Shown one piece after another: positions 815 through 55,824 of a stretch of DNA of 64,000 bases. The stretch lies in NCBI GenBank assembly GCA_951406725.2, contig OX597828.1, positions 60,512,001 through 60,576,000 on the forward strand. Direction: 5' to 3'. The first letter of the stretch is position 1. Every line of letters starts with the position of its first letter. This DNA comes from Octopus vulgaris. Lineage: Eukaryota. Made by a program: the position numbers and the translations under genes. The notes beneath the pieces were generated by a model. That model was given only the letters and a program-made list of their open reading frames with translations, was not told the origin of the DNA and did no database searches.

Positions 815-3510
815 ATCATCATCATCATCGTTTAACGTCCGTTTTCCGCGCTAGCACGGGTGGGACGGTTCAACCGGGGTCTGGGAAGCCAGGGTCTGCA
901 CCAGGCTCCAGTCTGATCTGGCAGAGTTTCTACAGCTAGATGCCCTTTCGGATGGTGCTTTTTATGTGCCACCAGCACTGGAGCCAGTCGAGGTGGCGCT
1001 GGCATCGACCACGTTCGGATGGTGCTTTTTAAGTGCCACCGGCACAGAAGCCAGTCGAGGCGGCGCTGGCATTGGCCACGTTCGGATGGTGTTTTTTATG
1101 TGCCACCGGCACTGGAGCCAGTCGAGGCGGGGCTGGCATCGGCCATGTTTGGATGGTGCTTTTTATGTGCCACCGGCACAGGTATCACAACTACTATTTC
1201 CATTGATATTTATTTCGATGTTCATGTACTTGACTCAACAGGTCTCCTCAAGCACAGCGGGATGTTCTGGAATCCAAGGTACTTTGAATGGGCAGGGGCT
1301 ATGCGGAACTGGTGCAGGAAGCAGCCCGGGTCTTTGCATATCTCCAGAGATCTCGGTCCTTCGCCATTGCCTCAGTGAGGCCCAACGCTCTGAGGTCATG
1401 CTTGACTACCTCATCCCATGTCTACCTGGGTCTACCTCTCCCCCTGATACCTTCAACTGTTTGGGAGTGGCACTTCTTCACACATCTCTCCTCATCCATC
1501 CGCAGTACATGACCATACCATTGCAAGCATCGCTGTTGCACACCACATCTGATGCTTCTTATGTCCAGCATTTCTCTTAGGGTGCTTACCCTGTCATGCG
1601 CGCACACTGACATTACATATCCAGCGGATCATGCTAGCTTCATTCCTTTCAAGTCTACGCATGTCCTCTGCAGTCACAGCCCATGTTTCACTACCGTGAA
1701 GCATGGCAGTTCGCACATATGCATCATACAATCTATCTTTCACTTTGAGTGAGAGACCCTTTGTCGCCAGTAGGGGTAGGAGCTTTCTGAACATTGCCCA
1801 GGCTATTCGTATTCTAGTGGTGACACTCTCTGAGCATCCACCTCCACTACTAACTTGGTCACCCAGGTGGCGGAAACTATCAACTACTTCTAGTTTCTCC
1901 CCCTGGAGTGTGATGGAATCTGTTTTCTGAGTATCTGTGGTGTCTATTGTCCCTGTGCATCTGCCGCACATGAAAGCTATCTTATCAGTTAATTTCCCTT
2001 TGATGTTGCTGCACCTCTTATACATCCATAGCTTACACTGGGTGCATCTTATGGAGTTTCTACCTACACCTTTCCTACAGATCGAGCAGGGCCACCTGCC
2101 TGAGGGTGTGTGTGCTGAGTTCGCCTTTCTGCTTACTATAACTTTGGTCTTTGCTACATTTACTCTAAGGCCCTTTGATTCTAACCCTTGCTTCCACACC
2201 CGAAATTTCTTTTCTAGTTCTGGTAGTGATTCTGCTATGAGAGCCAGGTCATCAGCATAGAGGAGCTCCCAGGGGCATCCTGTTTTGAATTCCTCTGTTA
2301 TTGCCTGGAGGACTATGACGAATAAAAGGGGACTGAGGGCTGAGCCTTGGTGTACACCTACTTCTACCCGGAATTCTTCACTATATTTGTTGCCAATCCT
2401 AACCTTGCTGACAGCCTCTCTGTATAGGGCCTGTACAGCCCTTATTAGCCATTCGTCAATCTCCAGTTTCCGCATCGACCACTAGATAAGGGATCGGGGG
2501 ACCCTGTCAAAGGCTTTCTCCAAGTCCACAAAAGCTATGTAGAAGGGTTTATCTTTAGCTAGGTACTTCTCCTGCAGTTGTCGGACCAGGAATATAGCAT
2601 CAGTGGTGCTTCTACCTTGCACAAAACCGAACTGCATCTCATCTAAGCAAAGTCTCTCCCTAATGAGATGACCTTCATCACATGATCCAACAGTTTAATA
2701 TCCCTGTAGTTATTTCTATCTAGAGCATCACCCTTACCCTTGTAGCAGTTGACTATGGTGCTGCTATGCCAGTCATTGGGTATGACTCCATTATGAACTA
2801 CCTGGTTTACAATGCAGGTGACTAGGCCATAGCCCACATAGCCAGCTGTTTTAAGCATCTCAGCAGTGATTCCTGATGGGCTGGGGGCTTTACCTGGTTT
2901 CATATCCTTAATTGCCTTAACTACAAGGGAGCTGTCTATTCGGATAGCTGGTCCCTCTACTGGGTCAACATTTGGCAGGCTCTCCTCCTCCCATTCATTC
3001 TCCACATTCAGCAGTCTTTCATAATGGCTTCTCCAAGCCTCTTTCTTTTCACCAACATTAAAAGCAAGTACCCCATCATCCATGCGGACACATTTCTCTC
3101 CTGTAACATCACACTTCTTCTTTTCTGCTACATCTTTGGCTATGTATACCTGCCACCCAGCCTCCCTTTTGGCTACCTGGTACAGTTCCCTGCTACCCCC
3201 ATCCCTCCAGGCTTTCCAGGCCTGTTTCTTTGCACTAATAGCTTTGTCTACTGCACTATTCCACCACCATGTAGCTCTAGGTCTGGAAGGGACTTTGCAC
3301 CATCCGCAGACTTGGTCTGTGGCACTCAGCAAGCTGTCCCGTAGGAATTCCCAGCTACCTTCTATGTCCGACGTCTGAAGCTCCTCCTCCCTCTCATCAA
3401 ATTTCTTGATGAGGATGTCCCTAAATCTCTGACCATGTGAAGGGTTCTTTAGCTTCCAAATCCTTCTTTTCGGGATTGGTTTGTTTCTTGGAGTCCTTCT
3501 GGCCTCGCTA
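815..3510 (-). mobile_element. RTE-clade non-LTR retrotransposon, 5'-truncated, frameshifted
   Basis: ORFs 2643..3677 and 1594..2475 give RT motifs (GVHQGSALSP, LLYADD). C-terminus RLQWYGHV...GRGRPR, 3' UTR, and (ATG)n tail at 815-829. Confidence 0.95.
949..1180. repeat. 67-bp tandem repeat (~3.5 units) in the RTE 3' UTR
   Basis: Units start at 949, 1016, 1083 and 1150 (cggatggtgctttttatgtgccaccggcac...). Confidence 0.9.
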
Positions 3511-30261: not shown

Positions 30262-33200
30262 ACTGCAGACTACCTCGTTGACGAACGACAGAGACCTTAT
30301 CTTTGTGGCTGGTGACTTCAATGGTCACGTTGGACGACATGCTGGGGGCTTCCATGGCGTACATGGAGGCTATGGCTCCCGCAACGAGGAGGGAACCAGG
30401 CTGCTGGAGTTCTGTGATGCAAATAATCTTATGATTTGCAACACTAACTTCAGGAAACCTACCAACCACCTAGTCACTTACCGATCGGGCCAACATACCA
30501 GCCAAATTGACTACATCCTTGCAAGGCAAAGGGAGAGATGGCTGCTTATAAATGCCAAAACCTTCCCAGGTGAAGAATGTACCCCACAACATAGACTGGT
30601 AGTTAGTGACTTTAGGATCAGGACTAGGAGGACTACCAGAAGATGACCAATATGGAGAAGAAGGATCTGGAAGCTTAAAGATCCTGCAAATGGACAGAGA
30701 TTTAGGGGCATATTACTTGAAGCCTTTGACGAAGCAGAAGGGGATAGAGCATCACAGGGGGTAGAAGACAGCTGGACGTTTCTAAGGGACAACCTGCTGA
30801 GAGCCACTGACCAGATCTGTGGCTGGTGCAAAGTCCCCTCTCGACCTAGAATAACGTGGTGGTGGAACAATATTGTAGACAGGGCTATTAGAGAAAAGAG
30901 ACAGGCTTGGAAGGTCTGGAAAAATGGGGGTAGCAGGGAATTGTATCAGACTGCCAAAAGAGAAGCTAGGAGACAGGTTTATTTAGCCAGAGGGGAAGCA
31001 GATAAGGAAAAATTTGCCAGTGTTCTGCGCTGTGAGGACCAAAGACTGGAGGTGTTTCGCGTTGCAAGACAGTGTGTGAGAGAGAATCGTGATGTGGTAG
31101 GAGAGAAGGGTGTTCGCATGGAAGATGGTTCACTTGCACTAAATGAGGATGCAAAGAGAGAGGTTTGGAGATGCCACTATGAAAGGTTGCTGAATAAAGA
31201 AAATGAATGGGATAAAGAGAGTCTGCCGAATGTTGACCCAACAGAGGGATCAGCTATCAGGGTTGATAGTTCCTTGGTAGCTAAGGCAATTAGAAGCATG
31301 AAGACAGGGAAAGCCCCAGGCCCATCAGGAATCACTGCAGAGATGCTCAGAATGTCTGGTAGTGTCGGCTATAGCCAAGTCACCTGTATAGTTAATCAGG
31401 TGATACACAAAGGAGTCATACCCAATGACTGGTGTAGCAGCATAATAGTCAACTGCTACAAAGGTAAATGTGACGCCCTAGATACAAATAACTACAGAGG
31501 TATCAAGCTGTTGGATCAGGTGATGAAGGTTACGGTGAGGGTCATAGCCCAACTAATTAGAGAGAGAGGTAGTTTAGATGAGATGCAGTTTGGGTTTGTG
31601 CCAGGGAAAAGTACTACTGATGCTATATTCCTGGTAAGGCAGCTGCAGGAGAAATACCTAGCCAAAGATAAGCCCCTGTACCTGGCTTTTGTTGACATGG
31701 AGAAAGCCTTCGACAGGGTCCCCCGATCCCTTATCTGGTGGGCAATGAGGAAACTAGGGATAGATGAATGGTTAGTGAGAGCTGTGCGGGCCATGTATAG
31801 GGACACTGCTAGTAGGGTGATGGTTGGGAACGAGTACAGTGAAGAATTCCGGGTAGAGGTAGGGGTCCACCAAGGCTCAGTACTCAGCCCCCTCCTATTT
31901 ATCATAGTCCTCCAGGCAATAACGGAGGAATTCAAGACAGGATGCCCTTGGGAGCTCCTCTATGCTGATGACCTTGCTCTAATTGCTGAGTCGCTATCAG
32001 AACTGGAGAAGTTTCAGGTGTGGAAACAAGGATTAGAATCGAAGGGCCTTAGAGTCAATCTAGCTAAAACCAAAGTCGTAATCAGTAGGAAGGAAGACAA
32101 ATCACAAACGCCTTCAGGTAGATGGCCCTGCTCGATCTGTAGAAAAGGTGTAGGTAGAAACTCTATAAGATGCACCAAGTGTAAGCTATGGACACATAAG
32201 AGGTGCAGCAATGTCAAAGGAAGGCTAACTAGGAAGATGGTTTTTGTATGTGGCAGATGCTCAGGAACAATAAACACTGAAAATGCTCTGAGACCAACTT
32301 CCGTCACTTTCCAGGGGGAAAAACTAGAAATAGTTGATAGTTTCCGTTACCTAGGTGACCAAGTCAGCAGCGGGGGCGGGTGTGCTGAAAGTGTAACTGC
32401 TAGAGTAAGAATAGCTTGGGCAAAGTTCAGAGAGCTCTTACCTCTGCTGGTGGCAAAAGGCCTCTCGCACAGAGTGAAAGGCAGACTGTATGATGCGTGT
32501 GTACCAACAGCCATGCTACATGGCAGTGAAACATGGGCCGTGACTGCTGAGGATATGCGTAAGCTCGCAAGAAATGAAGCCAGTATGCTCCGATGGATGT
32601 GTAATGTCAGTACTCATAGGCGCAGGGGTGGCTGTGTGGTAAGTAGCTTGCTAACCAACCACATGGTTCCGGGTTCAGTCCCACTGCGTGGCATCTTGGG
32701 CAAGTGTCTTCTGCTATAGCCCCGGGCCGACCAATGCCTTGTGAGTGGATTTGGTAGACGGAAACTGAAAGAAGCCTGTCGTATATATGTGTATATATAT
32801 ATATATATGTATGTTTGTGTGTCTGTGTTTGTTCCCCTAGCATTGCTTGACAACCGATGCTGGTGTGTTTACATCCCCGTCACTTAGCGGTTCGGCAAAA
32901 AGAGACCGATAGAATAAGTACTGGGCTTACAAAAAGAATGAGTCCCGGGGTCGAGTTGCTCGACTAAAAGGCGGTGCTCCAGCATGGCCGCAGTCAAAAT
33001 GACTGAAACAAGTAAAAGAAAGAAATACCCGGCAGAGTGTAAAGTAGCTTGAGAGAAAAGCTGGAGCTAAGAAGCATCAGTTGTGGTGTGCAAGAGAGAC
33101 GTTTGCGCTGGTATGGTCATGTGGCGAGAATGGATGAAGATAGTTGTGTGAAAAAGTGCCACACCCTAGCTGTTGAGGGAACCTGCGGAAGAGGCAGACC

Positions 33201-33863
33201 CAGGAAAACCTGGGACGAGGTGGTGAAGCACGACCTTCGAACTTTAGGTTTCACTGAGGAAATGACTAGAGGCCGAGACCTGGAAGTGTGCTGTGCGCGA
33301 GAAGACCCGGCAGGACAAGTGAGTCCATAACCCGTGGCCTTCTACATGGGATGGAGCCAGCCTACGTATGCATACCTCCCTTCTTGGGACACAAAACTCT
33401 ACTTGTGAAGACCCGTTGAGGCAAGTGATGATCAGGATCAGAATCGAAATCGATCAATGGAAATTGCAGTTGTGTTACCAGTGCCGGTGGCATGTAAGAG
33501 AACCTTCCATTTCGTGACCGTTGCCAGCACCGCCCCGACTGGCCTCGTGCCGATGGCACGTAAAAAGCACCATCCATTTGTGTCCGTTGCCAGCCTCGGC
33601 TGGCCCTCGTGCCGGTGGCACATAAAAAGCACCATCCGTTCGTGGCCGTTTGCCAGCTCTGTCTGGCACCTGTGCGGGTGGCATGTAAAAAGCACCCACT
33701 ACACTCACGGAGTGGTTGGCGTTAGGAAGGGCATCCAGCCGTAGAAACACTGCCAGATTTGACTGGGCCTGATGAAGCCTTCTGGCTTCACAGACCCCAG
33801 TAGAACCGTCCAACCCATGCTAGCATGGAAAAACGGACGCTAAACGATGATGATGATGATGAT
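30262..33863 (+). mobile_element. RTE-clade LINE, young, 5'-truncated within APE, interrupted by a SINE
   Basis: One frame from the APE motifs (AGDFNGHVG, QIDYIL, QHRLV) through RT (LLYADD) with a single TGA at 30644. C-terminus resumes after the SINE. (GAT)n tail ends at 33863. Confidence 0.97.
32619..33024 (+). mobile_element. SINE family A, full length, inserted in the RTE ORF2
   Basis: GGCGCAGGGGTGGCTGTGTGGTAAGTAGCTTGC...GGTTCAGTCCC...GGCGGTGCTCCAGCATGGCCGCAGTCAAAATGACTGAAACAAGTAAAAGA. RTE sequence is contiguous across it. Confidence 0.95.
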
Positions 33864-34406
33864 ATAAAAGTGTGTAATGATAGAGTTTGTTAAATATGGA
33901 TTTGAAAAGATTGTCGAAAACACCGAAAAAAGTTATACTAATGCATATTTATAATTTATTTTAATCAATTTAGTTACTGAAAGCAATCTCTCTCACTTTC
34001 TTTGTGTGTACACACAACATATTTAGGTACATGCACATGTACACAAATGTATGCATGAGTGTGCGAGTATTTATGGCCTGTGTGTGTGTGTGTGTGTGTG
34101 GTAAGAAGCTTCAGGGAGGGATTGTAGAGGTTTTTTGCCTCCAGTTTGTGTATAAATTGTGTTTTATAATTGTATGGACTTTTTGGTCCAAATATATTGT
34201 ATTTTAAATTGTAAGAGGATTAATACCTCTGTATATGCGTTTTTAAAGATCAATGATTTAGAGAAGCAGAGCGTCGGCAGGCGCTTTCTGTCTTCTCCCA
34301 TCTTTATCATTATTGTATCATAATCATTCGCCTCATCAATGTCTGTGTCCAGTCTGCAAAGCTACTTTATATATGTAGTGCCTACATGGCAAATTTAATG
34401 AATAAA

Positions 34407-34548
34407 AGAAGCTTGCTTCCGAACCACATGGTTCTGGGTTCAGTCCCACTGCATAACACCTCAGGCAAGTGTCTTCTACTATAGCCTTGGGTCGACCGAA
34501 GTCTTGTGAATGGATTTGATAGGCAGAAACTGAAAGAAACCCGTCGTG

Positions 34549-38094: not shown

Positions 38095-38430
38095 CACGTA
38101 CCGTCAACAACAGCCAAAAGACACAAACAAAACTTTACCGGACGTTCCTTTCCGTCTGCAACAATTTCAGACGATTACTACTGTAATTACCAAGCCCTCT
38201 CTCGCTCTCAGTCCTCTGTGTATCTCCCTCTCTTTTACGTTACTGTCATACTCTCGCCTGTCACGTACCGTCAACAACAGCCAAAAGACACAAACAAAAC
38301 TTTACCGGACGTTCCTTTCCGTCTGCAACAATTTCAGACGATTACTACTGTAATTACCAAGCCCTCTCTCGCTCTCAGTCCTCTGTGTATCTCCCTCTCT
38401 TTTACGTTACTGTCATACTCTCGCCTGTCA
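38095..38430. repeat. Exact 167-bp tandem duplication in the solo LTR
   Basis: Units start at 38095 and 38262 (cacgtaccgtcaacaacagcc...). Confidence 0.95.
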
Positions 38431-41973: not shown

Positions 41974-43380
41974 CCCATTCGTTACTATATTTCTGACCAA
42001 AATACACCCCTCATGGGTTTCAGTTAAATTCTAAAATAATCATGAATTAAGACTAGTTTCATTAACCAACTGTAACTTTTTTTTTACTTACCAACATATT
42101 AATGTGATATTTGGAACGTAATTAAAGAAAGGGTTCTTAGTCAATTCTATTGCACAACTTTGGTCCCTAAGTAACACCAATTACAGGTAAATACAAATAA
42201 ACTGAGCAAAATATAGAAATATTTAAATTTTGTTTAAACATCACCATAGAAAATAAGTCATAAGCTAATATTCAATTGGGTATGCAACAAAATTTTTAAT
42301 ATAGAATTGTGCCCATCACTAGGATTATCAGTTGAATTTAATATACATAAGAACAAGTAAAGGTAAAATAAAATGAAATACTGGAATTTGTTTTTGAAGA
42401 AAACTTGAAGATTAAATACATCAACTAAATGAAATATACTCACAGACATACACAAGAACATATATAATAAAGATTTACCATAGAATTTAAATCAAAACTT
42501 GTCACTTACCTTCAGGCAAATTAAAATTATAGGTAAATAAACAGTAAAAATTAAGTAAATTTGAAAAATATTTATACAACCTAATACATACATGCAATAT
42601 TCACACAATATTTCTATCATGGAAACTAGTAAAACATCTATAAGGGATCAAAGTTTGGTTCTCCACGTACTGGGGTATCGGTTCAATTTCACAAATCGTA
42701 TTCTTGACTTTATACTGGAAATATACTGATCTTAAAAAGGTTCCTAATCCTGGGTAACTGTCTTATACCCATAATAATATTTGTGGCAAAAAATAACCTG
42801 TATTTCTTCCACAGTTGTGGGAAACCACAAGCTATCTTTTTTTCCAGTTTGTTTCTGCACTTCAAATAAGCTTTCAGGAAAAAATAAGAGAAAAAGGTCT
42901 AACGGTCTTACTTCCTCAGAAAAATTAATAAAAATATTTTTTAACTTCTTACTCCATTTGGGTATAAAATTATCCTCACTATCACTGCTTTCAGTTTCAG
43001 ATCCAGAAATATCTGATTCATTCTCATACACCACGTGCTTTTGTACTTCACTGATTCTTTTTCTTGATTTCTCCATATCTTCCGTTGAAAAACTCTCAAA
43101 TTCAGAATCACTGCTTGATAGCATGAAAGTCATATCCATTTTCAAAGTTGAAAAAAAAAAATGAGGAGAAAAGTTTCCCAAAATTCATGTCAGACAGTGT
43201 TGGATACTATAACAACTATTTACAAAGTGAAATCACATGTTTTCATGAATGTACTAATTGAGATTTGTGTTCAAATTCACATTTTAATAACAATGAGTAC
43301 TCTTGGCTGGCTACAGCTGGGTTGGTTGTTTGAATCAAAAACCCTTTCAACCGGCTGCGGCCAGGTTGGTATCGAAAGGG
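41974..43380 (-). mobile_element. Non-autonomous piggyBac deletion derivative
   Basis: TTAA at 41970-41973 and 43381-43384, TIR CCCATTCGTTAC / GTATCGAAAGGG. ORF 42744..43181 (SSSDSEFESFS...WFPTTVEEI) is a transposase N-terminus. Confidence 0.9.
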
Positions 43381-44033
43381 TTAATACTACTGCTTCTCAG
43401 TTGAGGTGTCTTGTGCTGTAGGTTACTTTGTGACCTCAATGCTGTTAGGACCCCATAAAAGGCACCAAGTAAAATGATTGTAATTAGGTAGTAGATCCAA
43501 CTGTAGACATCCTGCCAAAACAAACTGCAGAGCTTGGTGCTGTCAGGCTGTCCAACCCATGCCAGCATGGAGAATGGACATTAAAGGATGTGTGTGTGTG
43601 TGTATATGTATTTTTGTTTGTCCTCATTACTGCTTGACAACCACTGTTGGTTTGTTTACATCCCTGTAAAAGAGAGCAGGATGAAGAATAAGTCCCAGAC
43701 TTGAAGAAAAAAAAAGTACTGGAGTCAATTTGTTTGACTAATTATCCCTTCAAGACCCCAGTCATAATTTTTCATAGTTGTAACATTTTGATTGTTTCAA
43801 ACCTTTTGTCTGTGATGATTCCTCTCTTTATGGTTGAAGAATGATGATAATCATAAGATTGGTCTTTCTGAGACAATTGAGATAACTGATACAGTTGCTG
43901 ATGTTAGTTGTTCTGATAAAATGCATGATGGTAGCTGCTCTTGTGAGTACATCTTTCTTTGTATTACCATTTGTTGATTTTTACATATTTAGTTTCCATG
44001 GAAATTTCTTGGTTTGACCAATCAAAAAAAGAA
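43378..44033 (+). repeat. Copy 1 of a ~656-bp direct duplication
   Basis: Nearly identical to 46614-47270. Confidence 0.95.
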
Positions 44034-46613: not shown

Positions 46614-47270
46614 GGGTTAATACTACTGCTTCTCAGTTGAGGTGTCTTGTGCTGTAGGTTACTTTGTGACCTCAATGCTGTTAGGACCCCATAAAAGGCA
46701 CCAAGTAAAATGATTGTAATTAGGTAGTAGATCCAGCTGTAGACATCCTGCCAAAACAAACTGCAGAGCTTGGTGCTGTCAGGCTGTCCAACCCATGCCA
46801 GCATGGAGAATGGACATTAAAGGATGTGTGTGTGTGTATATGTATTTTTGTTTGTCCTCATTACTGCTTGACAACCACTGTTGGTTTGTTTACATCCCTG
46901 TAAAAGAGAGCAGGATGAAGAATAAGTCCCAGACTTGAAGAAAAAAAAAGTACTGGAGTCAATTTGTTTGACTAATTATCCCTTCAAGACCCCAGTCATA
47001 ATTTTTCATAGTTGTAACATTTTGATTGTTTCAAACCTTTTGTCTGTGATGATTCCTCTCTTTATGGTTGAAGAATGATGATAATCATAAGATTGGTCTT
47101 TCTGAGACAATTGAGATAACTGATACAGTTGCTGATGATGTTAGTTGTTCTGATAAAATGCATGATGGTAGCTGCTCTTGTGAGTACATCTTTCTTTGTA
47201 TTACCATTTGTTGATTTTTACATATTTAGTTTCCATGGAAATTTCTTGGTTTGACCAATCAAAAAAAGAA
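46614..47270 (+). repeat. Copy 2 of the ~656-bp direct duplication (RPL24 intron 4)
   Basis: Nearly identical to 43378-44033. Confidence 0.95.
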
Positions 47271-51544: not shown

Positions 51545-51719
51545 TGTCAAGCGATGTTGGGAGGACAAACACACACACACACACAGATATACATATATAT
51601 GACGGGCTTCTTTCAGTTTCTGTCTACCAAATTCACTCACAAGGCTTTGGTCGGCCCGAGGCTATAGTAGAAGACAATTGCCCATGGTGCCACGCAGTGG
51701 GACTGAACCCAGAACCATG
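51545..51719 (-). mobile_element. SINE family A body (B box onward); its head lies at 54949-54986
   Basis: Reverse complement of the 32619 copy from CATGGTTC onward. Confidence 0.9.
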
Positions 51720-52977
51720 AAGCCTCATCAGCCACATCCACCTCTCTCTTTGAGCGGGTAGGGGACTGTTCCAGGACCATACCATGGTCCTGGGGGCAGT
51801 TCTTTTTAATGTGGCCTGGCTGTAGGTACGGGTGACACTTGAAGGGACGTCCCTCGAGTATCACCGGATACCTGCAGTCAGCCATTTAAAAATAAATCTG
51901 GTAAAACCAGATCTGTTGCGGCCGATGTGGTCCATAGGGTCAAAATCGCTTTTTACCCTTCCCAATCGACCGCCGGCAATACTCTTACATTTAAGAGCCT
52001 GGGCCCGCTATCCCCTAGTCCCAGTCGGATGGTATTATCAATCCAACCCGCCTCGGTGCCTGGGGTTGACCCACATACCAAGGCTCTTATTAATTTCCTC
52101 CCACAGTACGACAGGAGGAACAGAATTTCGTTGCCTTCCAAGGGCTTGCTCGCAGAATTGCGAGCCTCCCCCGGAGTGTCAAACAGCAACATACGGTTGC
52201 ATGCTTGACACCGCGAGATATGTATTTCACAGAAGACAAATAGTCTTTCAGTTCTTTCTCTATAGTTGGATTTGGGAAGACGGTGATGGTATCAAGAACT
52301 TTAACCACCACCGTTCTCTCCATATCTTTTAACCACTGCTTGGGTGGGATAATTTTCCACTCCAAGACAGGTTCTTCTTTTTAAGTTCCTTCTCTGCCAT
52401 GTCCCCCGCCAAAAAAAAAAAAAAAAAGATCAAAGGCAGTTCGCAAAAATTAAAACCGAATAAAAACAAGAAAAACAAAATAAAAGAAGGAAAAAACTGA
52501 AATTAAAATAATGAGAAAAAAAATGAACCGAAATTTAGGAAGAAAGGAAAAATTAAAAGGAAACAATGCACACAAGTAGAACAGACAGGGAATCCTGGGC
52601 CCTGTATAATACTCCAACAGGTAAATCCGATAGTCAGGGTCCTTCTCAATAGTACTCCAGTTAGGTAAACACCACAGGGTACCACTTTTTCTAGCGAAAT
52701 ACGCCCACCAGTATGTACAAGTTATTTGGCGAAAAAACACCACAGAATTTTACTCCAAAGAAGTTTTCAAAAAATTTTCAGTCCACCGTTAAGGCGACGA
52801 GAGCACAATATTTTTTACTCTCTAGAGCAAGCTACAATTTAAAGCCGCCAAGGCAAACGAAATTGCCCCAGGGCTAGGCAGGAACTTACTTGACGATTTT
52901 TCTTTTTGTTTTTCTTTTTCTATTCACGGAACCAAAGCTCTCTCTTTAAGCAACAGGCTTTCTAGCGGCGCATGCCT
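51720..52977 (-). mobile_element. Tx1/L1-like ORF1 retroelement, copy 1 (3' part lost)
   Basis: Frameshifted ORF (EWKIIPPKQWLKDMERTVVV...KCHPYLQPGHIKKNCP) homologous to copy 2. Its 5' end abuts the SINE target sequence. Confidence 0.8.
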
Positions 52978-52992
52978 GTAAGCAAGCTACTT

Positions 52993-54948
52993 TATTTCAT
53001 AAAATTTGTCATATAGACAGTACAAAGATTGTGTAGCTTTGCGGGCTGGACAAACACATTAATGAATGAAAATGAAATAAAATGAGTAAATGAGAGACGA
53101 AACCCCACACCCTCCGGTTGGATTTTTCTCGAAATCATATTTTCTTTTTTTTAAAAAATCAATATGAGGTTTCAAACCTCTTACAAGAAGGAGGCACTAA
53201 AACCTCTTACTTAACATGTTTTTTTTAAAAAACAATTGAAGTTATAAACCACTACAAATAATACAATAAGATGAGATTTCAAACCTAACGTGGTTTTTTC
53301 ACCTCCTACTCATCGATATATTCATCATTATCTTCCATATTAAGTTCATATATCCCGCCATTTCCCATGCCTCACTCATGTAAGTCATGTAAGGGCCACC
53401 CGGCCATATGCGACGCTCCTCCCCAAATCCTTTAAGCCTTTCCCACAAGGGAAACCTTATGACCTACACAGCTATCTGCAGTGGCCATTCGGGATCCCTT
53501 GTGAAGGGCATATCTACTGTCTCTTTATGTTCTACTTTTTCCATCTCCCCGCCCTTGTAGAAAAAGATAATTAATTCATCATCTTTAAGGGTGGGGGTCG
53601 TTTCTTCCATCGAGGGTGGCACAACTTTCTTTTTTTCTTTTCTTCCTGACTTCGAGAGAGTGGAGCTCTTCCGCTTTGTCCAGAGTCTCCACCACCTCCC
53701 GAAGCCTTAGGGTTCTTCGGCGGGCAACTATTGCTTCCCGCCTTCTTCCTTTTTAATCCTTTTTTGGGCTGAGGAGGCTTCACATCCACCTCTCCCTTTG
53801 ACTGGGTAGGAGAGGTGGCTTCCAGTGACTGTTCCAGGACCTTACCATGGTCCTGGGGGCAGTTCTTTTTAATGTGGCCTGGCTGCAGGCACGAGTGACA
53901 CTCGGGGGTGGGGGAGTACGTCCCTGAAGTATCACCGGATACCTGAAGCCAGCCATTTAAAAAATAATCTGGAAAATCGCTTTTGACCCTTCCCAATCGA
54001 CCGCCGGCAATACCCTTACATTTAAGAGCCTGGGCCCGCTATCCCCCAGTCCCAGTCGGATGGTATCTTCAATCCAACCCGCCTCGGTGCCTGGGGTGAC
54101 CCACATACCAAGGCTCTCATTAATTTCCTCCCGCAGTATGACGGGAGGAACAGAATTTCGTTGCCCTCTAAAGGCTGACTCGCAAATTTGCGAGCCTTTT
54201 CCCGGTTGTCAAACAGCAACCATACGGTTGCATGTTTGAAATCACGGGATATGTATTTCACAGAGGACAAATAGTCTTTCAGTTCATTTTCTATAACTGG
54301 TTTTGAGAAGACGGTGATGGAATCAAGAACTTTAGAATATGTTCTAACCACCACCGTCCTCTCCTCCATATCTTTTAACCACTGCTTGGGTGGGACAATC
54401 TTCCACTCAAAAGCAGTGACACCATTCTTTATCACCATGACGAAGAAAGTTCAAATGTCCACAAAAATAGAAATGCACTAGAAAGAAAAGAAAAAAAGTC
54501 CGAACGAAAAATAAATAGCAGAAAATAAGACAAAAGTAAACAAAAAGGACAGTTCAAAAAACAAGGTAAAACACGGAAGAAATAAAAATATGGTTCCAAA
54601 AGGCAACTACACAATTCCGGACACAGGTACTCCTGGCCCTCTTCTTTGGCTGTTACTCCGAGCTGGAATCTTAAATCCACAGAAGACGAATCTTCGACAC
54701 AATGGGCCATAAAAATTTTCAATGACTGGAACAAACTTCAACAAGCAAAAATCACAATAGCCGCCGAGAGCAGGCGAAATTGTCCCCGAGCTGTGCGAAA
54801 TTTACTGAAAAAAATTCCAAAACAATAAATCACACCCAGTTCAAAACCTCAAACGGACTTCTTAATTTTCAGTTTTAGGACGGAGCACACTAGCTTATGT
54901 CCTCCTTGTTCAAGTGTTGAAGCAAAACACCAATGCACATGTGCAGAA
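52993..54948 (-). mobile_element. Complete ORF1-only (HAL1-like) non-LTR retroelement, copy 2, 1956 bp
   Basis: 15-bp TSD GTAAGCAAGCTACTT (52978-52992, 54949-54963). ORF1-like protein from 54438 with CCHC knuckle CHSCLQPGHIKKNC. No EN/RT motifs seen. 3' end ...GAAATA|AAG forms AATAAA with the target. Confidence 0.85.
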
Positions 54949-54986
54949 GTAAGCAAGCTACTTACCACACAGCCATTCCTACACCT
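54949..54986 (-). mobile_element. SINE family A head (A box)
   Basis: GGTGTAGGAATGGCTGTGTGGTAAGTAGCTTGCTTAC. Confidence 0.85.
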
Positions 54987-54994
54987 ATACTAAT

Positions 54995-55824
54995 TGACTC
55001 TAGTTGTCCGTTTACACTCACTGATGGTCGTTCTCACTAACTAATTGAGTCGTCACGAGCCGCCTCGCTCCGTTGTCGCCAAGTTACTAACTGCTTGAAT
55101 CGTCATCGAAGTGACTGATTTTTGTAGGGTATTCTTGCTTTTATAACTATCCAGAAGGATAGACATATCATTGAGAACAATAGAATTAGTTGGTGGTCTT
55201 GTTATCTCTATTCTGGTTTTTGGTTAAGTAGAAGAGGTTATAAGGGTCAAGTGGTGAAGACATTATTTCGGTCTAGCTAAAGGCATCTGGAAAATGTAAA
55301 ACTGCTGTCAGAGAGAAACCATCGTTCAACCGTGAGAAGCGTTCTGTTGAAGTATTAATTTAAATTTGACAAAGGTGGATTGAATCCACTTCATACATGC
55401 AAGATCCACTACATATATATATATGAAGTGGATTCAATCCACCTTTGTCAAATTTAAATTAATACTTCAATAGAACGCTTCTCACGGTTGAACGATGGTT
55501 TCTCTCTGACAGCAGTTTTACATTTTCCAGATGCCTTTAGCTAGACCGAAATAATGTCTTCACCACTTGACCCTTATAACCTCTTCTACTTAACCAAAAA
55601 CCAGAATAGAGATAACAAGACCACCAACTAATTCTATTGTTCTCAATGATATGTCTATCCTTCTGGATAGTTATAAAAGCAAGAATACCCTAAGCAAAAA
55701 TCAGTCACTTCGATGACGATTCAAGCAGTTAGTAACTTGGCGACAACGGAGCGAGGCGGCTCGTGACGACTCAATTAGTTAGTGAGAACGACCATCAGTG
55801 AGTGTAAACGGACAACTAGAGTCA
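54995..55824. repeat. ~400-bp near-perfect inverted repeat with 26-nt spacer
   Basis: Arms 54995-55395 and 55422-55824. I saw one substitution and one small indel. Confidence 0.97.

What the first reader, a model, noticed from the sequence alone, without database searches (positions are those of the whole stretch)
51545..54986. Two ORF1-only retroelements inserted successively at the same 15-bp site of a SINE: candidate SINE-targeting HAL1/Tx1-like system
Seen: one SINE copy is split into a head (54949-54986) and a body (51545-51719). Between them lie two related elements in the SINE's orientation. The SINE sequence AAGTAGCTTGCTTAC occurs at 54949-54963 and again at 52978-52992, so it is an exact TSD around copy 2 (1956 bp) and also abuts the 5' end of copy 1. 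The copies share a diverged ORF1-like protein with a CCHC knuckle but have dissimilar 5' UTRs, which points to independent insertions and not a tandem duplication. Copy 2 runs 5' UTR, ORF1, 3' UTR, AATAAA with no endonuclease or RT. Established: Tx1-clade L1 elements are often sequence-specific (U2 snRNA, 5S, tRNA spacers, microsatellites, and Xenopus Tx1L inside the Tx1D transposon), and HAL1 elements encode ORF1 only. Inference: a non-autonomous family uses an abundant SINE as a safe harbour and disables it by separating the A and B boxes. I do not know of this being described in cephalopods.
Basis: partly seen in the sequence, partly recalled or inferred. Interest (0 to 1): 0.85.

Follow-up and report, generated by a model that had tools for sequence, protein, structure and literature searches.

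The report
Octopus retrotransposons that target one SINE
These are two decayed copies of an octopus retrotransposon family that encodes only an RNA-binding protein and, like a full-length L1-type partner that likely supplies the cutting and copying enzymes, sits almost always at one exact position inside an abundant SINE, where several elements can stack up head to tail.

Summary
Confirmed and extended. The 15-mer, the split SINE and two ORF1-only elements are at the stated coordinates; copy 1 has lost its 3' end by deletion. Genome-wide, 26 of 29 other copy-2-type 3' ends and 38 of 40 sampled 5' ends lie at this SINE site; at least 1,362 such junctions exist against at least 66,147 empty sites. 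An autonomous partner turned up: a young 5.4-kb L1-group element (ORF1 plus APE, RT, zinc domain; several intact ORF2s) with 30 of 30 3' ends at the same site. Young ORF1-only families with intact ORF1 (predicted two RRMs plus CCHC, dN/dS 0.08-0.28, about 27% identical to the partner's ORF1) share only a ~37-nt 3' end with it. Flanking SINE halves are not co-mobilised. One correction: only about 9-10 bp of the 15-mer is a true duplication; the rest is likely the element's own 5' tip, which rebuilds the target, and arrays reach eight elements. Tx1-clade membership is likely but untested. Tx1 targeting of transposons and HAL1 are known; a SINE target with long-lived ORF1-only passengers was not found in ten paper searches.

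The parts
54964..54986 (-). SINE head upstream of the insertion point, with an A-box-like motif (box consensus recalled)
   Evidence: 89% to intact SINE head at 32616-32652
54949..54963 (-). 5' copy of the 15-mer; 54954-54963 likely true target-site duplication, 54949-54953 likely the element's own 5' tip
   Evidence: exact repeat; split inferred from young relatives
52993..54948 (-). Copy 2: full-length but decayed ORF1-only element (5' UTR, broken ORF1, 3' UTR), with small internal deletions
   Evidence: full-length relatives 2035-2174 bp bounded by target on both sides; no ORF2
53300..54438 (-). Broken ORF1 of copy 2 (frameshifts near 54100 and 53975, stops); end approximate
   Evidence: tblastn with intact relatives hits frames -2, -1, -3
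53853..53903 (-). CCHC zinc knuckle of copy 2
   Evidence: PF00098 E 6.4e-4, 20.1 bits against cut-off 20.8
52993..53029 (-). 3'-terminal ~37 nt shared with the autonomous partner, holding a predicted 4-bp hairpin at 53007-53019; no poly(A) tail
   Evidence: 84% over 37 nt; pair counts
52978..52992 (-). Junction 15-mer between copy 2 and copy 1
   Evidence: exact repeat; same junction type in 1,362 places
51720..52977 (-). Copy 1: ORF1-only family member with a different 5' UTR, ORF1 start at 52400, 3' part deleted
51545..51719 (-). SINE body with B-box-like motif, 3'-truncated
   Evidence: 91% to 32662-32794
34103..34414 (+). Third, 5'-truncated insertion of a related family at the same site of another SINE copy, 9-bp duplication carrying a private base on both sides
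32619..33030 (+). Intact SINE with an empty target at 32641-32655; end approximate

Best explanation
The two elements are dead copies of a long-lived family of ORF1-only non-LTR retrotransposons that sit at one fixed site of an abundant octopus SINE and are likely inserted there by the endonuclease and reverse transcriptase of a full-length L1-group (probably Tx1) partner found at the same site. Shown: the shared site, the shared ~37-nt 3' end, the partner's APE-RT-zinc ORF2, and purifying selection on the passengers' own ORF1. Inferred: the partner's ORF2 binds the 3' hairpin of the passenger RNA, nicks the bottom strand opposite GGT|AAG, primes on the target without a poly(A) tail, and nicks the top strand about 9-10 bp on (sometimes ~15); the RNA's 5' tip carries 5-6 target-like bases, which restores the whole 15-mer on the head side, so the site can be used again. 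Copy 1 would have gone in first, copy 2 later on its head side; a deletion removed copy 1's 3' half. The passengers' ORF1 (predicted RRM-RRM-CCHC) would package their own RNA.
For: 3' flanks: 27 of the 30 best 3'-UTR loci (26 of 29 without the window) start with the target within one mismatch, 24 run on into SINE body. 5' flanks: 16 of 20 copy-2-type and 18 of 20 copy-1-type loci have the SINE head, 3 and 1 follow another element's 3' end. Partner: domains PF03372, PF00078, PF13966; intact 1133-aa ORF2; best solved relative L1 ORF2p E 4e-67 against R2 8e-20; 18 of 18 copies picked by endonuclease similarity have the target at the 5' end and 17 of 17 visible 3' ends enter SINE body; 30 of the first 30 of 108 terminus matches likewise, 29 with SINE body. 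Young ORF1-only copies: 23 elements in 20 loci, all bounded by the target, 1976-2265 bp, none with an ORF2 match. dN/dS 0.08-0.28 over 15 pairs of six lineages. ORF1 model pLDDT 93; best matches are RRM proteins for both halves. SINE bodies behind young partners are 92.8% alike, empty SINEs 94.6%, the elements 99.4%. Hairpin: 94.6% of cells paired, one pair C-G in 23, U-A in 8, U-G in 4 of 37. 5' tip: where the target reads T at position 13, the 5' repeat has the family's A in 10 of 11 young copies, and a family-specific one-base-short variant recurs in three insertions.
Against: No biochemical or cell test; trans-mobilisation is inferred from shared site and terminus. The partner's ORF1 is only 23-28% identical to the passengers', and the young partner is younger than the window copies (closest relatives 85-88% in ORF1, 95% in the 3' UTR), so the direct partner was an older relative. 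Three of 30 copies (L016, L021, L025) lie off target, sharing only AAGT; one 5' end in each set of 20 lacks the head. The 9-10 bp figure is not uniform: four short or 5'-truncated copies show ~15 bp, and five private variants at positions 5-9 in young copies are not shared by both repeats. The hairpin has four pairs and the sequences are related, so the covariation may be one or two events. Samples favour the best-scoring, younger copies.
Confidence: 0.85

Rival explanations
1. The real target is a tRNA or other small-RNA gene, and the SINE is hit because its head resembles that gene.
For: Sequence-specific non-LTR elements are known to target tRNA and snRNA genes (PMC4640811, passages). The SINE head has A- and B-box-like motifs (consensus recalled).
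Against: In 30 tRNA loci from G000 the closest match to a 13-nt target core has 4 mismatches, but these are only 30 of 34 listed hits, from 63 scored candidates and six or seven isotypes. 29 of 30 young partner ends run into SINE body and the 30th into another element. The target variant carried by young families matches a SINE subfamily variant.
Confidence: 0.06
2. SINE head, element and SINE body form one composite that moves as a unit, so the 'target' is the element's own ends.
For: Part of the 15-mer is indeed element-carried; nearly every copy has both SINE halves.
Against: SINE flanks are no more alike than empty SINEs while the elements are 99.4% alike; heads join many unrelated 5' ends, including 5'-truncated ones; private bases are shared by both repeats in four loci.
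Confidence: 0.02
3. The pair and the long arrays arise by local duplication or by read-through transposition of dimers rather than by repeated insertion.
For: In the seven-unit array units 1/2 are 99.9% and 4/5 are 99.7% alike; in the triple partner array neighbours (99.4%) beat outside copies (99.2%); three loci share the same A-then-B order.
Against: The window's two copies have unalignable 5' UTRs and 86-88% ORF1 identity; arrays mix families; in the C10 array a unit is closer to a copy on another contig (99.5%) than to its neighbours (98.8-99.3%). It may explain some array units, not the targeting.
Confidence: 0.05
4. The ORF1-only elements are private or recent deletion products of autonomous copies, not a self-sustaining lineage.
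For: Copy 2 and many relatives carry internal deletions.
Against: Six ORF1-only lineages form one clade (SH-aLRT 100, quick tree) on a long stem away from the partner's ORF1, with an Octopus sinensis protein inside it; synonymous sites are near saturation with dN/dS 0.08-0.28; young families have intact ORF1 and uniform length.
Confidence: 0.02

Closest known systems
Transposon-targeting Tx1 families: Xenopus Tx1L in Tx1D; crocodilian Tx1-Mar in Mariner-N4_AMi, Tx1-8_Crp/Tx1-4_AMi in LTR elements, Tx1-9_AMi in Harbinger (PMC4494074, passages and section 15 read)
   Same: APE-type L1-group element inserting at a fixed site of another abundant repeat.
   Different: The target here is a SINE, which none of those passages lists; specificity in the samples is 90-100% at one base position; ORF1-only passengers come with it.
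SINEU-3 (PMC4494074, passages)
   Same: Non-autonomous passenger of a target-specific Tx1; 90% in one repeat; tandem copies sharing a duplication.
   Different: SINEU is short, snRNA-headed and non-coding; these passengers are ~2 kb and keep a selected ORF1.
HAL1 (half-L1) (PMC5753468, passage; the 2010 primary paper was not held)
   Same: Non-autonomous L1 derivative encoding only ORF1, arising more than once.
   Different: Described there from mammals; here a cephalopod, predicted RRM-RRM-CCHC ORF1, no poly(A) tail, strict target site.
Drosophila HeT-A with TART/TAHRE (PMC5537684, passages)
   Same: ORF1-only element with its own conserved protein, borrowing RT from a partner and forming mixed head-to-tail arrays.
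   Different: HeT-A adds to chromosome ends and serves the host; these arrays grow inside dispersed SINE copies by a likely endonuclease cut, and no host role is known.

Membership tests
Tx1 clade (autonomous partner) | ORF2 with APE endonuclease, RT and C-terminal zinc domain | tested here: met
   PF03372, PF00078, PF13966; intact 1133-aa ORF2
Tx1 clade (autonomous partner) | Belongs to the L1 group | tested here: met
   L1 ORF2p E 4e-67 over residues 6-870, R2 only 8e-20
Tx1 clade (autonomous partner) | RT groups with named Tx1 elements rather than other L1 lineages | not testable with these tools
   No hit carried a Tx1 name, so no reference tree could be built
Tx1 clade (autonomous partner) | Target sequence preference (common, PMC4494074) | tested here: met
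   30 of 30 3' ends at the target
Tx1 clade (autonomous partner) | ORF1 with CCHC knuckle (feature recalled) | tested here: met
   PF00098 E 2e-5
HAL1 | L1-group derivative encoding ORF1 only | tested here: met
   ORF1 homologous to the partner's (tblastn E to 7e-14); no ORF2 between the junctions
HAL1 | Spreads as a family with target duplications | tested here: met
HAL1 | Derived from mammalian L1 (PMC5753468) | tested here: not met
   Named relatives are Octopus and Argonauta proteins; fold is predicted RRM-RRM-CCHC. HAL1-like, not HAL1.
HAL1 | Poly(A) tail (recalled for L1 derivatives) | tested here: not met
   3' ends join the target directly in the 37 aligned termini
tRNA-derived SINE (target) | tRNA-like head with A and B boxes | tested here: inconclusive
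   Box-like motifs by eye (consensus recalled); no Rfam tRNA match at E<=10 and no ARAGORN call in the window or 18 SINE loci
tRNA-derived SINE (target) | Short, non-coding, very abundant interspersed repeat | tested here: met
   ~410 bp intact copy; 35,899 + 30,248 exact 29-nt matches
Octopus OR2 CORE-SINE | Identity to the published OR2 sequence and CORE domain | not tested
   PMC4758252 (passage) says OR2 is an octopus CORE SINE; the resemblance is recalled, no sequence was compared

The most novel reading that the evidence does not exclude
A still-active community of retrotransposons uses a SINE as a self-renewing landing pad: the SINE multiplies the sites, one autonomous L1-group lineage supplies a site-specific endonuclease, at least two independently derived ORF1-only lineages ride on it with their own selected RNA-binding proteins, and each element carries a 5' copy of the target tip that rebuilds the site and has changed along with the SINE's subfamilies, so that HeT-A/TART-like mixed arrays grow inside dispersed SINE copies.
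Probability: 0.5. Interest if true: 0.8.

Novelty: new variant of a known kind. Interest (0 to 1): 0.68.

Why it matters
It adds SINEs to the list of repeats used as fixed targets by sequence-specific retrotransposons, and it shows ORF1-only passengers persisting to synonymous saturation beside a partner with a very different ORF1. That makes an open question testable: why keep ORF1 in cis when ORF2 is borrowed? Hundreds of young copies with both junctions give a natural read-out of first- and second-strand cleavage and of 5' junction formation by target homology. Naturally intact ORF2 copies offer an APE endonuclease with base-precise targeting for structure and specificity studies. For octopus repeat annotation, these nested arrays are likely to be mis-assembled into chimeric SINE/LINE consensus models and mis-annotated as genes (one relative is an 'uncharacterized' O. 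sinensis protein).

Tried and rejected
Expression: no RNA holder listed; laying four runs gave contigs only, with RNA status a guess, so nothing is claimed about transcription. Preference of the young partner for the younger SINE variant: 15 of 18 in the first sample but 19 of 30 in the second (p 0.066 against 46%; the samples overlap), so dropped. Naming Tx1 relatives: two homologue searches, one cluster look-up and one Atlas search returned no Tx1 name. Profile comparison of passenger and partner ORF1 is circular because the profile held a partner sequence; not used. ORF2 matches downstream of L094 and L115 lie 1.2-2.4 kb beyond the 5' piece with no ORF1 between and are 58-61% identical to the partner; taken as separate insertions, not proven. 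L1 ORF1p was not among the listed fold matches; this excludes nothing. The careful ORF1 tree did not finish; the quick tree is quoted. The scan's own earlier findings held nothing. The window-wide repeat search was swamped by microsatellites. For the hairpin I aligned 37 termini chosen by hand, 36 from the rows (98 matched, many not true junctions or near-duplicates) plus the window's third insertion.

Full report
Observation. On the minus strand the window reads SINE head, 15-mer, copy 2 (52993-54948), 15-mer, copy 1 (51720-52977), SINE body. The 15-mer is exact in both places and unique in the window. The copies are 86-88% identical in ORF1 and do not align in the 5' UTR. Both ORF1s are broken; copy 2 keeps a CCHC knuckle. 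Copy 1 ends where relatives continue about 880 bp; the join to the SINE body uses a CA microhomology and lacks the third 15-mer and about six SINE bases, so it is likely a later deletion. A third insertion of a related family sits at the same site of another SINE copy at 34103-34414.

Targeting. A search of G000 with copy 2's 3' UTR, blind to flanks, gave 1,205 candidates, 40 scored, 30 fetched. Counted by eye, 27 of 30 (26 of 29 without the window) continue with the target within one mismatch over ten bases and 24 go on into SINE body; three share only AAGT. For 5' ends I fetched the 20 best copy-2-type loci after the window and 20 copy-1-type loci of the 36 matches: 16 and 18 have the SINE head, 3 and 1 follow another element's 3' end, one in each set has neither. 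A junction pattern occurs 1,362 times (control 7); exact empty targets number 35,899 and 30,248 for two SINE variants, about 1.2e-5 of strand positions.

Partner. Of 20 junction loci fetched with long upstream flanks, three held a 5.1-5.5 kb two-ORF element between SINE head and body, with APE, RT and zf-RVT. Its endonuclease finds about 80 copies at 92% or more amino-acid identity, several with 1,140-1,150-codon open frames; one ORF2 was read in full (1133 aa) and is closest to L1 ORF2p among solved structures. All 18 single loci taken from the top of that list have the target at the 5' end and all 17 visible 3' ends enter SINE body; so do the first 30 of 108 exact terminus matches, one via another element (the two samples overlap). 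SINE bodies behind these copies are 92.8% alike, empty SINEs of the same variant 94.6%, the elements 99.4%, so the SINE halves do not travel with the element. Related ORF2 and ORF1 proteins are on record for Argonauta hians and Octopus species, and contigs of a run with another species label cover 28 of 30 bins of a young passenger locus at 90% or more.

Passengers. An ORF1 search (top 150 of 11,611 candidates) showed young ORF1-only families. Twenty loci held 23 elements of 1976-2265 bp, all bounded by the target, with open ORF1 frames of 401-473 codons in the output shown and no ORF2 match (part was cut). Six lineages are 62-85% identical in the first 210 residues, with dN/dS 0.08-0.28 and dS mostly above 1, and 23-28% identical to the partner's ORF1. 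They form one clade in a quick tree. The AlphaFold model (pLDDT 93) matches RRM proteins in both halves, Z up to 9.2 (rmsd 2.8, 82 aligned) and 8.4 (rmsd 2.3, 71 aligned). Passenger and partner 3' UTRs share only the last ~37 nt, which hold a four-pair hairpin with one covarying pair (related sequences, so weak on its own). A 1.5-kb ORF1-only element outside this clade, 40% identical to the partner's ORF1, was seen once in an array, suggesting a second loss of ORF2.

The 15-mer. In young copies the two repeats can be compared base by base (35 young and 29 older elements with SINE body). Where the target side reads T at position 13, the 5' repeat has A in 10 of 11, and a one-base-short variant recurs in three insertions of one subfamily whatever the target. 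Private bases at positions 4-9 are shared in four loci and unshared in five young ones. 5'-truncated copies show 9-11 bp (five cases) or about 15 bp (four). I infer a duplication of about 9-10 bp plus a target-like tip on the element. Window-type copies never have the A variant at the target (0 of 27, p 9e-8 against 46%) and carry the T tip, while young families carry the A tip; this fits a tip that follows SINE subfamily turnover, though simple age explains the first half. Arrays reach seven passengers plus one partner in one SINE. An extra T at one junction recurs in all four head-side junctions of another array, and the youngest family stands head-side in five arrays, which suggests addition at the head side; one array (partner, passenger, partner) is uninformative and some neighbours are alike enough for local duplication.

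Known and new. Tx1 families aimed at other transposons, a non-coding passenger with tandem insertions (PMC4494074; passages and section 15), HAL1 (PMC5753468; passage) and HeT-A/TART arrays (PMC5537684; passages) each share part of this. Target lists in PMC4640811 (passages) and PMC4494074 name RNA genes, microsatellites, telomeres and transposons, not SINEs; PMC8869645 has no occurrence of 'SINE'. An octopus repeat annotation (PMC13282606; first third read, term search of text and of its one held supplement) lists 80 L1-Tx1 families, 13 recently active, with no mention of targets, nesting or HAL1. PMC4758252 and PMC3747384 were seen as passages. Ten searches found no report of this system; Repbase Reports, Dfam, repeat libraries deposited outside the paper and subscription papers (Bao and Jurka 2010, Kojima and Fujiwara 2004) could not be seen and may describe it.

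Verdict. Real, system-wide and mechanistically coherent: a SINE-targeting L1-group element with long-lived ORF1-only passengers. New variant of a known kind; interest 0.68.

Noticed in passing
window 55125-55692: Near-perfect inverted repeat (274-nt arms, 99%, 20-nt AT spacer) just upstream of the SINE head; looks like a foldback or two inverted copies of a short repeat.
   Followed up: no
window 43378-43890 and 46614-47124: Direct duplication at 3.2 kb spacing, 98-100% identical over about 510 bp; recent duplication or assembly artefact.
   Followed up: no
window 1348-3364 and 30762-33281: Two opposite-strand copies of an RT-encoding LINE (76-82% alike); the second holds the intact SINE at 32619.
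   Followed up: partly
L251 4588-6109 (-): 1.5-kb ORF1-only element with an open 420-codon frame, outside the main passenger clade, at the SINE target inside an array of at least eight elements.
   Followed up: partly
L065 3529-6507 (+): 3.0-kb decayed element between SINE head and body that seems to hold two different ORF1s, one from each passenger lineage, with no junction seen between them.
   Followed up: partly
L057 centre (G000:C1:111116880-111116970): Two element 3' ends facing each other as a short palindrome around one junction.
   Followed up: no
L005, L006, L008, L014, L023, L119, L120: Copies with nearly the same ORF1 and 3' UTR carry several different 5' UTRs, some mosaic: promoter swapping within one passenger lineage.
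   Followed up: partly
L161 2070-4378 and L162 2818-3467: Other L1-group ORF2 fragments, 58-61% identical to the partner, not at the SINE site; possibly sister families with other targets.
   Followed up: no
L158-L160 (G000:C1:2101842-2102771): Tandem array of SINE heads at 167-189 bp spacing, a SINE-derived satellite with several targets; the window has similar 167- and 178-bp tandem pairs at 38095 and 40231.
   Followed up: no
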